NCBI GenBank assembly: GCA_964016885.1
Contig: CAXHJY010000588.1
Coordinates: 1-32,729 of the forward strand
Direction: 5' to 3'
DNA from: Eledone cirrhosa
Lineage: Eukaryota
Length of the DNA: 32,729 nt
In this document: positions 29,525-29,926 of the stretch, piece after piece
Position numbering within the stretch: the stretch's first letter is position 1
How the letters are laid out: every line of letters starts with the position of its first letter
The notes under the pieces: generated by a model
Database searches by the model: none
Told to the model about the DNA's origin: nothing
Seen by the model: the letters and a program-made list of their open reading frames with translations, nothing else
Made by a program: the position numbers and the translations under genes

Positions 29525-29579
29525 ACTGCCTGAAGAGATCACAGCCAAAGATGGCTGTCACTGAAATATATATAGCAGT
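29525..29579 (+). ncRNA. Type I hammerhead ribozyme (family C)
   Basis: Same as 26243-26297; predicted cut after 29574. Confidence 0.82.
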
Positions 29580-29730
29580 AATAAACGAAGCTAAATTTTA
29601 ATCATTTGACTTTTATTTAACTTTATTTTACACTACTCCGGAGTAACCAAACCAACCTGCGCACTTCGTCGAGTGCTCCAGCCTGCATACTGAGGTGTTG
29701 GTATACAACCAACATAAACTCAAAATCTAA

Positions 29731-29768
<38 letters not shown>

Positions 29769-29770
<2 letters not shown>

Positions 29771-29926
29771 TTAGATTTTGAGTTTATGTTGGTTGTATAC
29801 CAACACCTCAGTATGCAGGCTGGAGCACTCGACGAAGTGCGCAGGTTGGTTTGGTTACTCCGGAGTAGTGTAAAATAAAGTTAAATAAAAGTCAAATGAT
29901 TAAAATTTAGCTTCGTTTATTACTGC
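29769..29926 (-). mobile_element. Family C inverted 3' segment (from predicted cleavage site to tail end)
   Basis: Reverse complement of 29575-29732; with the intervening TA run it forms a spacerless palindrome 29575-29926. Confidence 0.88.

What the first reader, a model, noticed from the sequence alone, without database searches (positions are those of the whole stretch)
29575..29926. Spacerless 352-bp palindrome whose outer edge is exactly the predicted hammerhead cleavage site
Seen: 29751-29926 mirrors 29575-29750. The mirrored copy stops at the base matching G29575, the first nucleotide after the predicted AUA cut (after 29574). In the paralogous block this interval is plain satellite of similar length (offset shifts only from 3282 to 3290), so it arose after the duplication and replaced satellite. 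Inference: a cDNA of the ribozyme-cleaved 3' product (RT run-off at the cleaved 5' end), i.e. a genomic footprint of in vivo self-cleavage and possibly local re-insertion. Alternative: replication fold-back that rejoined at the adjacent TATATA, which would give a similar boundary.
Basis: partly seen in the sequence, partly recalled or inferred. Interest (0 to 1): 0.75.

Follow-up and report, generated by a model that had tools for sequence, protein, structure and literature searches.

The report
Local mirror copy beside retroelement ribozyme
A perfect 352-base mirror repeat sits at the end of a Penelope-type retroelement repeat and stops exactly at a predicted ribozyme cut site, but it is most likely an ordinary DNA copying slip at a TA run rather than a trace of the ribozyme cutting RNA.

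Summary
The palindrome is exact (29575-29926, 176-bp arms). Its edge is the base after the predicted cut of a minimal type I hammerhead in a Penelope-type repeat. Against the tandem paralog, 156 nt of satellite were replaced by a 164-nt exact reverse complement of local DNA, including a host flank that 0 of 380 reads from other family copies carry: a local 3-2-1-4 template switch starting in a (TA)n tract. The match to the cut site is less special than it looks, because helix III of the ribozyme is itself the best satellite microhomology in the copy (ATATATATA) and the mirror extends through it with a single 1-nt gap. A second, ribozyme-free inverted patch lies about 0.85 kb downstream in the same block. 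0 of 8 other retrotransposed 5' ends in the window lie at a cut site. The local ribozyme has a helix II mismatch that 97% of family reads lack. For the RNA reading: a blunt join at the scissile bond needs no extra mutation. The locus itself was not found in reads, so a chimera is not excluded. DNA switch about 0.62, artefact 0.2, cleaved-RNA copy 0.13.

The parts
29575..29926 (.). Perfect palindrome, 176-nt arms, tail-to-tail with respect to the element
29763..29926 (-). Inserted 164-nt exact reverse complement of 29575-29738 (fragment 2->3 of a 3-2-1-4 event); includes the mirrored host flank
29736..29765 (.). Central self-complementary (TA)15 tract of host satellite, likely first switch point (27 nt in the paralog)
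29525..29579 (+). Minimal type I hammerhead motif; predicted cut 29574|29575; A at 29538 where 3459 of 3551 family reads have G, unpairing the base of helix II
29566..29574 (+). 9-nt alternating AT tract: helix III, loop and cleavage triplet of the ribozyme, and also the longest satellite microhomology in the forward copy
29496..29728 (+). Forward pLTR-like copy of family C with about 100-nt 3' tail; 5'-truncated 78 nt upstream of the cut
29330..29495 (-). Inverted, tail-less copy of family C (head-to-head), with an intact-helix-II hammerhead (cut at 29386); the apparent spacer 29466-29495 is this arm's extra 5' sequence
29927..30018 (+). Satellite resumes, identical for 92 nt to paralog 26637-26728
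26019..27700 (+). Tandem paralog block (2 substitutions against the focal block over 29301-29762); collinear satellite landmarks at offsets 3282-3505
26481..26636 (+). 156 nt of plain satellite occupying, in the paralog, the slot of the mirror arm (inferred ancestral state)
30768..30874 (-). Ribozyme-free inverted satellite patch with two TA-centred perfect palindromes (30723-30796, 30834-30895); absent from the paralog
21170..25322 (-). Neighbouring 5'-truncated Penelope-like element (779-aa open frame 22981-25320, hammerhead 21214-21258) with Hydra-clade motifs; context only

Best explanation
The right arm is an exact local reverse-complement copy of the end of a Penelope-type repeat and its host flank, likely made when a DNA polymerase switched template at the (TA)n tract, copied 164 bases backwards, and likely rejoined the satellite at the ribozyme's own AT tract. 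Shown: the four-point geometry (3=29575, 2=29738, 1=29762, 4=paralog 26637), net +8 nt, local source. Inferred: DNA template, replication or repair context, microhomology-guided return with a 1-nt slip or a blunt join, origin after the tandem duplication. The coincidence with the cut site would arise because this hammerhead's helix III and cleavage triplet are a satellite-like AT tract.
For: Exact reconstruction, 156 nt removed and 164 nt inserted, order 3-2-1-4 as defined in PMC5453318 (passages). Mirrored flank is locus-specific: 380 of 380 X22 reads at 29730 differ from the window. The AT tract 29566-29574 is the longest microhomology to local satellite in the forward copy (9 nt; 532 occurrences in 26450-29320, against 2 for the 8-nt runner-up at 29612). 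Of 655 oriented satellite words counted in seven arrays, 652 are forward and 3 reversed; all 3 are in one patch 0.85 kb downstream in the same block, with no ribozyme. 0 of 8 other 5' ends of families A, B, C in the window are at their cut site and 7 of 8 copies run through it. Base pairs closing helix II have probability about 0 in the local copy, and all hammerhead stems vanish in a transcript that includes the inverted arm.
Against: The junction is 1 nt out of phase for a clean microhomology return (expected TATATATAT, observed ATATATAT); a blunt random stop at one named bond has about 1/164-1/400 chance. 164 nt exceeds the longest 2->3 fragment (128 nt) of the hominid gold-standard set (PMC7954356, passages). 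0 of 8 only bounds the fraction below about 31%. DNA- and RNA-templated copying give the same product except at the end point. The palindrome was not seen in reads.
Confidence: 0.62

Rival explanations
1. Library, read or assembly chimera: one fold-back molecule or consensus error produced the mirror arm and the nearby inverted patch; neither exists in the animal.
For: Both inversions sit within about 1.1 kb of one block and none in about 20 kb of the same satellite elsewhere in the window. Zero differences between arms. No run was shown to hold this locus: best word share 0.77; X17 and X18 laid 0 reads; X22 and X1 show other copies. PMC8557442 (passage) notes that PLE inverted structures trouble assemblies.
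Against: It needs two chimeric junctions with a return to the collinear position within 8 nt and 92 nt of identity to the paralog after it; the two blocks differ by 2 substitutions and many tract lengths, so the duplication itself is not one molecule read twice.
Confidence: 0.2
2. RNA-templated copy: a read-through transcript of this locus was cut by the hammerhead; the nicked (TA)n strand primed reverse transcription on the 3' product, which ran off at G29575 and was joined to downstream satellite with a 156-nt target deletion.
For: Blunt end exactly at the predicted scissile bond with no extra mutation. Precedent in R2, where the ribozyme cut sets the 5' junction and joins carry target deletions and non-templated bases (PMC3774820, passages). 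PMC3846280 (passage) predicts tail-to-tail repeats from priming on sense read-through RNA with simple-repeat flanks. Active-looking PLE machinery targeting (TA)n is next door. In a dimeric hammerhead an intact copy could supply the core in trans, softening the helix II defect (inference).
Against: Other family copies end at about 29727-29728, whereas this copy would start about 35 nt into host DNA. Near length-neutral replacement is unexplained. Local helix II mismatch and sequestration by the inverted arm. Minimal PLE hammerheads showed no monomer cleavage and low dimer cleavage in vitro (PMC4209133); in a reconstituted PLE, uncleaved RNA was the dominant substrate and no RNA-seq reads ended at the cut (PMC11167929, passage). 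0 of 8 other 5' ends at the cut; no pile-up, joint or listed loose end at 29574/5 (weak test). The ribozyme-free patch nearby needs a DNA mechanism anyway.
Confidence: 0.13
3. Ordinary PLE insertion of another family copy, 5'-truncated by chance, into the TA tract next to the first.
For: PLEs of this kind insert in (TA)n and form complex inverted arrays; 5' truncation is the rule in the window.
Against: The arm carries the locus-specific host flank in reverse (0 of 380 reads of other copies have it) and is 176 of 176 identical in a family with many common variants; the centre is perfectly symmetric.
Confidence: 0.05

Closest known systems
Short-range template switch, type 3-2-1-4 (four-point model; PMC5453318, PMC7954356)
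   Same: Descendant is prefix + local reverse complement + suffix; creates one perfect inverted repeat; AT-rich setting; small net length change.
   Different: Copied fragment is 164 nt, longer than the 128-nt maximum in the hominid set; ancestral state is taken from a paralog, not an outgroup; return point coincides with a ribozyme site.
R2 retrotransposon 5' junctions set by an HDV-like ribozyme (PMC3774820)
   Same: A copy whose 5' end is the predicted scissile bond, joined with a target deletion.
   Different: In R2 this is the family-wide rule with demonstrated cleavage; here it is one copy, hammerhead not HDV-like, 3' start in host DNA, and cleavage is untested.
Penelope-like element head-to-head inverted pLTRs with optional tail (PMC3846280, PMC8557442, PMC11167929)
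   Same: The inner unit 29330-29728, and families A and B in the window, have exactly this layout.
   Different: The focal palindrome is tail-to-tail, includes host flank and replaces satellite.
Minimal type I hammerheads of metazoan PLEs (PMC4209133)
   Same: Core boxes, long helix II, 5-bp helix I, 2-bp palindromic helix III, extra base after A9.
   Different: The local forward copy lacks the G10.1-C11.1 pair; an extra U (C in about 40% of reads) precedes G12.

Membership tests
Template switch 3-2-1-4 | Derived sequence = ancestral prefix + exact reverse complement of nearby sequence + ancestral suffix | tested here: met
   prefix to 29762, 164-nt insert = rc(29575-29738), suffix from paralog 26637
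Template switch 3-2-1-4 | Switch points ordered 3<2<1<4, source at the same locus | tested here: met
   (locus-specific flank mirrored)
Template switch 3-2-1-4 | Copied fragment within the length range reported | tested here: inconclusive
   164 nt against median 12, maximum 128 in PMC7954356; that set is limited by its detection method
Template switch 3-2-1-4 | Template was DNA, event occurred in vivo | not testable with these tools
   No run shown to hold the locus
Minimal type I PLE hammerhead | CUGANGA and GAAA boxes, UH triplet, helices I and II | tested here: met
Minimal type I PLE hammerhead | Short palindromic helix III/loop 3 | tested here: met
   29566-29573; described in PMC4209133
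Minimal type I PLE hammerhead | G10.1-C11.1 pair closing helix II | tested here: not met
   Forward copies at 29538 and its paralog have A; met in the inverted arm and in 3459 of 3551 family reads
Minimal type I PLE hammerhead | Self-cleavage at the predicted bond | not testable with these tools
   No assay; Rfam listed no hammerhead hit for family C among the 150 of 190 rows shown
Ribozyme-defined 5' junction (R2-like) | 5' end of the copy at the scissile bond | tested here: inconclusive
   Met if blunt; alignment also extends to 29566 with one 1-nt gap
Ribozyme-defined 5' junction (R2-like) | Recurrent in the family | tested here: inconclusive
   0 of 8 other ends in the window; no signal, which had low power
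Ribozyme-defined 5' junction (R2-like) | cDNA starts at the element's own 3' end | tested here: not met
   Family tails end near 29727-29728; the mirror starts in host satellite
Typical PLE inverted insertion | Head-to-head arrangement with tail on one arm | tested here: not met
   Focal palindrome is tail-to-tail; met by the inner unit 29330-29728

The most novel reading that the evidence does not exclude
A transcript still near its own locus was cut in vivo by a minimal Penelope hammerhead and reverse-transcribed in cis from a nick in the flanking (TA)n, overwriting 156 nt of satellite: a genomic footprint of in vivo cleavage by a ribozyme class whose function is open, and a route by which PLE machinery makes tail-to-tail palindromes.
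Probability: 0.13. Interest if true: 0.6.

Novelty: new member of a known kind. Interest (0 to 1): 0.22.

Why it matters
Whether the minimal hammerheads of animal Penelope-like elements cut in vivo, and whether cut RNA is ever reverse-transcribed, is stated as open in PMC8557442 and PMC11167929 (passages). Genomic copies starting at the scissile bond would be a cheap test, and this family is high-copy enough to run it. One copy cannot carry the claim, and this family is a poor test case because its cut site abuts a satellite-like tract. On the leading reading the locus is a clean, unusually long example of a known mutation type in (TA)n satellite.

Tried and rejected
No whole genome is held, so copies could not be counted in the assembly. 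No RNA holder listed. X17 and X18 laid 0 reads: no test. The large pile-ups of read ends at 29518 and 29597 in X22 both fall on AATT words and have mixed loose ends (agreement 0.34-0.4); I read them as restriction-library artefacts (enzyme type inferred, not on record), not as element ends. They also blind the test: a copy starting at 29575 would give only 23 nt before the next AATT. Only 12 of 193 loose-end rows were shown; none was at 29574/5 and the smallest X22 row shown had 287 reads. X1 summed contig depth shows no step up at 29575, but is no copy number. Two scans of metagenome contigs with family motifs found 0 matches. Earlier-findings look-ups by place, sequence and words were empty. 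Rfam miRNA hits over the palindrome are below gathering scores and reflect the hairpin shape only. Pfam and PDB gave no meaningful hit for the 779-aa frame; its PLE assignment rests on motifs and weak similarity to the GIY-YIG fragment. A satellite variant that would give an in-phase 3-nt microhomology at the junction occurs 12 times in 760-21160 but 0 times in 25325-31270: rejected. My first strict hammerhead scan missed the forward copies because of their helix II mismatch.

Full report
Setting. The window is mostly a strand-oriented (TA)n satellite built of AAATATG and TATG words, interrupted by retroelement pieces. A 779-aa open frame at 22981-25320 on the minus strand carries the motifs that PMC8557442 section 11 lists for Hydra-clade Penelope-like elements (DKT, CxCX5C linker, CxxC and CxH around the endonuclease), has a YRDD motif (read by me as the RT active site, from recall) and a 3' hammerhead (Rfam Hammerhead_1, 29.1 bits, below the gathering score of 34). 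Pfam and PDB gave it no meaningful hit; a second fragment hits GIY-YIG and aligns weakly to it. A relaxed scan found 10 hammerhead motifs in four families. No whole genome is held.

Observation. The palindrome is exact: centre 29750|29751, arms 176 nt. Its centre is a 30-nt (TA)15 tract, so the lack of a spacer is a property of the host satellite. The forward hammerhead of family C has its predicted cut after 29574. The blocks at 26019 and 29301 are a tandem duplication with 2 substitutions over 462 nt and collinear satellite landmarks. Taking the left block as ancestral, identity holds to 29762, then 164 nt equal to the reverse complement of 29575-29738 replace 156 nt of satellite, then identity resumes for 92 nt.

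The copy is local. In run X22 (6118 reads laid on 29466-29740) 380 of 380 reads at 29730 differ from the window, and contigs in X1 continue from 29728 into other simple repeats: family copies end near 29727-29728 and the AAATATG flank is specific to this insertion. The mirror arm carries that flank reversed and matches 176 of 176 in a family with many common variants. So it was copied from this locus, from DNA or from a read-through transcript. The same call shows that the 30-nt 'spacer' of the inner palindrome is simply the longer 5' end of the inverted arm (joint 29466 to 29496 on opposite strands, 378 reads), which makes 29330-29728 an ordinary head-to-head PLE insertion with a tail on one arm, as described in PMC3846280, PMC8557442 and PMC11167929 (passages).

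The boundary. The mirror would continue TATATATATTTC; the window has ATATATATGG. That is blunt at the scissile bond, or an extension to 29566 with one base lost. But the nine bases before the cut are helix III, its loop and the AUA triplet, and they are also the longest match to the satellite in the forward copy: 9 nt, present 532 times in the local satellite, against 2 times for the 8-nt runner-up at 29612; the 6-nt word at 29702 is also common (171 times) and was passed. A DNA polymerase returning to (TA)n is drawn to within a few bases of the cut. A purely random blunt stop would hit a named bond with chance 1/164 to 1/400, and the finding was selected for that coincidence.

Controls in the window. 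(a) Of 655 AAATATG words in seven satellite arrays, 652 are forward; the 3 reversed ones form one patch at 30768-30874, with two TA-centred perfect palindromes, made of exact reverse complements of nearby upstream satellite (source positions ambiguous in a repeat), and absent from the paralog. This block therefore produced local inversions with no ribozyme involved; the clustering suits one episode of serial switching, or one aberrant molecule. (b) 5' ends of other copies relative to their family's cut: A +77 and about +172; B -24, -61, -90, -1254; C -78 and -108. That is 0 of 8 at the cut, and 7 of 8 copies run through it. Left out: the duplicate C block, the A copy cut by the window edge, the long element (5' end 4 kb from its cut) and the fragment at 31272 (no hammerhead found). 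The 95% upper bound is only 31%.

Would this RNA be cut? Position 29538 is A in both forward copies but G in 3459 of 3551 X22 reads and in the inverted arm. The two pairs closing helix II have probability about 0 in the local copy, and a transcript including the inverted arm loses all hammerhead stems. PMC4209133 (parts 1-2 of 4) calls G10.1-C11.1 highly conserved and found no monomer and low dimer cleavage for such motifs; PMC11167929 (passages) found uncleaved RNA the dominant substrate in vitro and no RNA-seq reads ending at the cut. Against my reading: in a dimeric hammerhead an intact copy might cut this strand in trans (inference), and PMC3846280 (passage) explicitly expects tail-to-tail repeats from priming on sense read-through RNA.

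What the reads could not do. No listed run is RNA. Two Hi-C runs laid 0 reads. X22 is a reduced-representation library whose end pile-ups fall on AATT words, which hides copies starting at 29575; no pile-up, joint or shown loose end lies at 29574/5, but only 12 of 193 loose-end rows were shown. None of the four runs demonstrably holds this locus, so the palindrome is unverified in raw data. Two metagenome scans were empty.

Comparison. The geometry is the 3-2-1-4 type of the four-point model, which with its mirror case made up 31% of human-chimp events and needs no pre-existing repeat (PMC5453318, passages); AT-rich surroundings are typical and the longest fragment reported was 128 nt (PMC7954356, passages). 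The RNA reading has its precedent in R2 (PMC3774820, passages), where it is a family-wide rule. In four searches (listings and abstract starts), the passages named above, PMC7229834 (passages) and bioRxiv 10.64898/2026.07.22.740005 (part 1 of 5), I saw no report of PLE genomic copies beginning at the hammerhead cut; supplements were not read and subscription papers are not in the library.

Verdict. Real in the assembled sequence, local in origin, most likely a DNA template switch (0.62); chimera 0.2; cleaved-RNA copy 0.13; independent insertion 0.05. These odds are my judgement, not computed. The RNA reading stays worth a genome-wide 5'-end count, best done on families A and B. Interest 0.22.

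Noticed in passing
30768-30874: Inverted satellite patch holding the only 3 reversed AAATATG words in the satellite arrays outside the focal mirror; two TA-centred perfect palindromes; absent from the paralog.
   Followed up: partly
1-737 and 15053-15850: 478-bp tandem repeat with a type I hammerhead (palindromic CTAG loop, cut after 415): retrozyme-like; also present as a head-to-head inverted insertion in PLE style, suggesting mobilisation by PLE machinery.
   Followed up: partly
6326-8030 and 9266-9767: Family B PLE: GIY-YIG fragment between inverted pLTRs, and a solo head-to-head pLTR pair with tail on one arm. Its hammerhead shares a 15-nt stretch of core and helix II with family C.
   Followed up: partly
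22981-25320: Hydra-clade-like PLE frame, 5'-truncated, with a long Asn/Ser-rich stretch between RT and endonuclease, reminiscent of the N-rich inserts in PMC3846280; no Pfam hit.
   Followed up: partly
29466-29495: Family C extends further 5' than any copy in the window (372 X22 reads with a common continuation), so C is the end of a longer element.
   Followed up: no
29523-29524 and 29562: Common family variants (AA to GG in about 45% of reads; T to C in about 40%) extend helix I and turn the closing G-U of helix II into G-C: probable subfamilies with better-formed ribozymes.
   Followed up: no
736-31271: The satellite keeps one orientation over about 30 kb (strong G skew) regardless of the orientation of inserted elements.
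   Followed up: no
31272-32729: Another 5'-truncated fragment that looks like a PLE endonuclease end followed by a repetitive pyrimidine-rich 3' region with internal duplications; no hammerhead found.
   Followed up: no
one search run list: Family C words are held by runs under 13 different organism labels (12 studies; 9 of 16 rows hold half the words or more), hinting at a recent or widely shared element; only one label was confirmed by laying reads.
   Followed up: no
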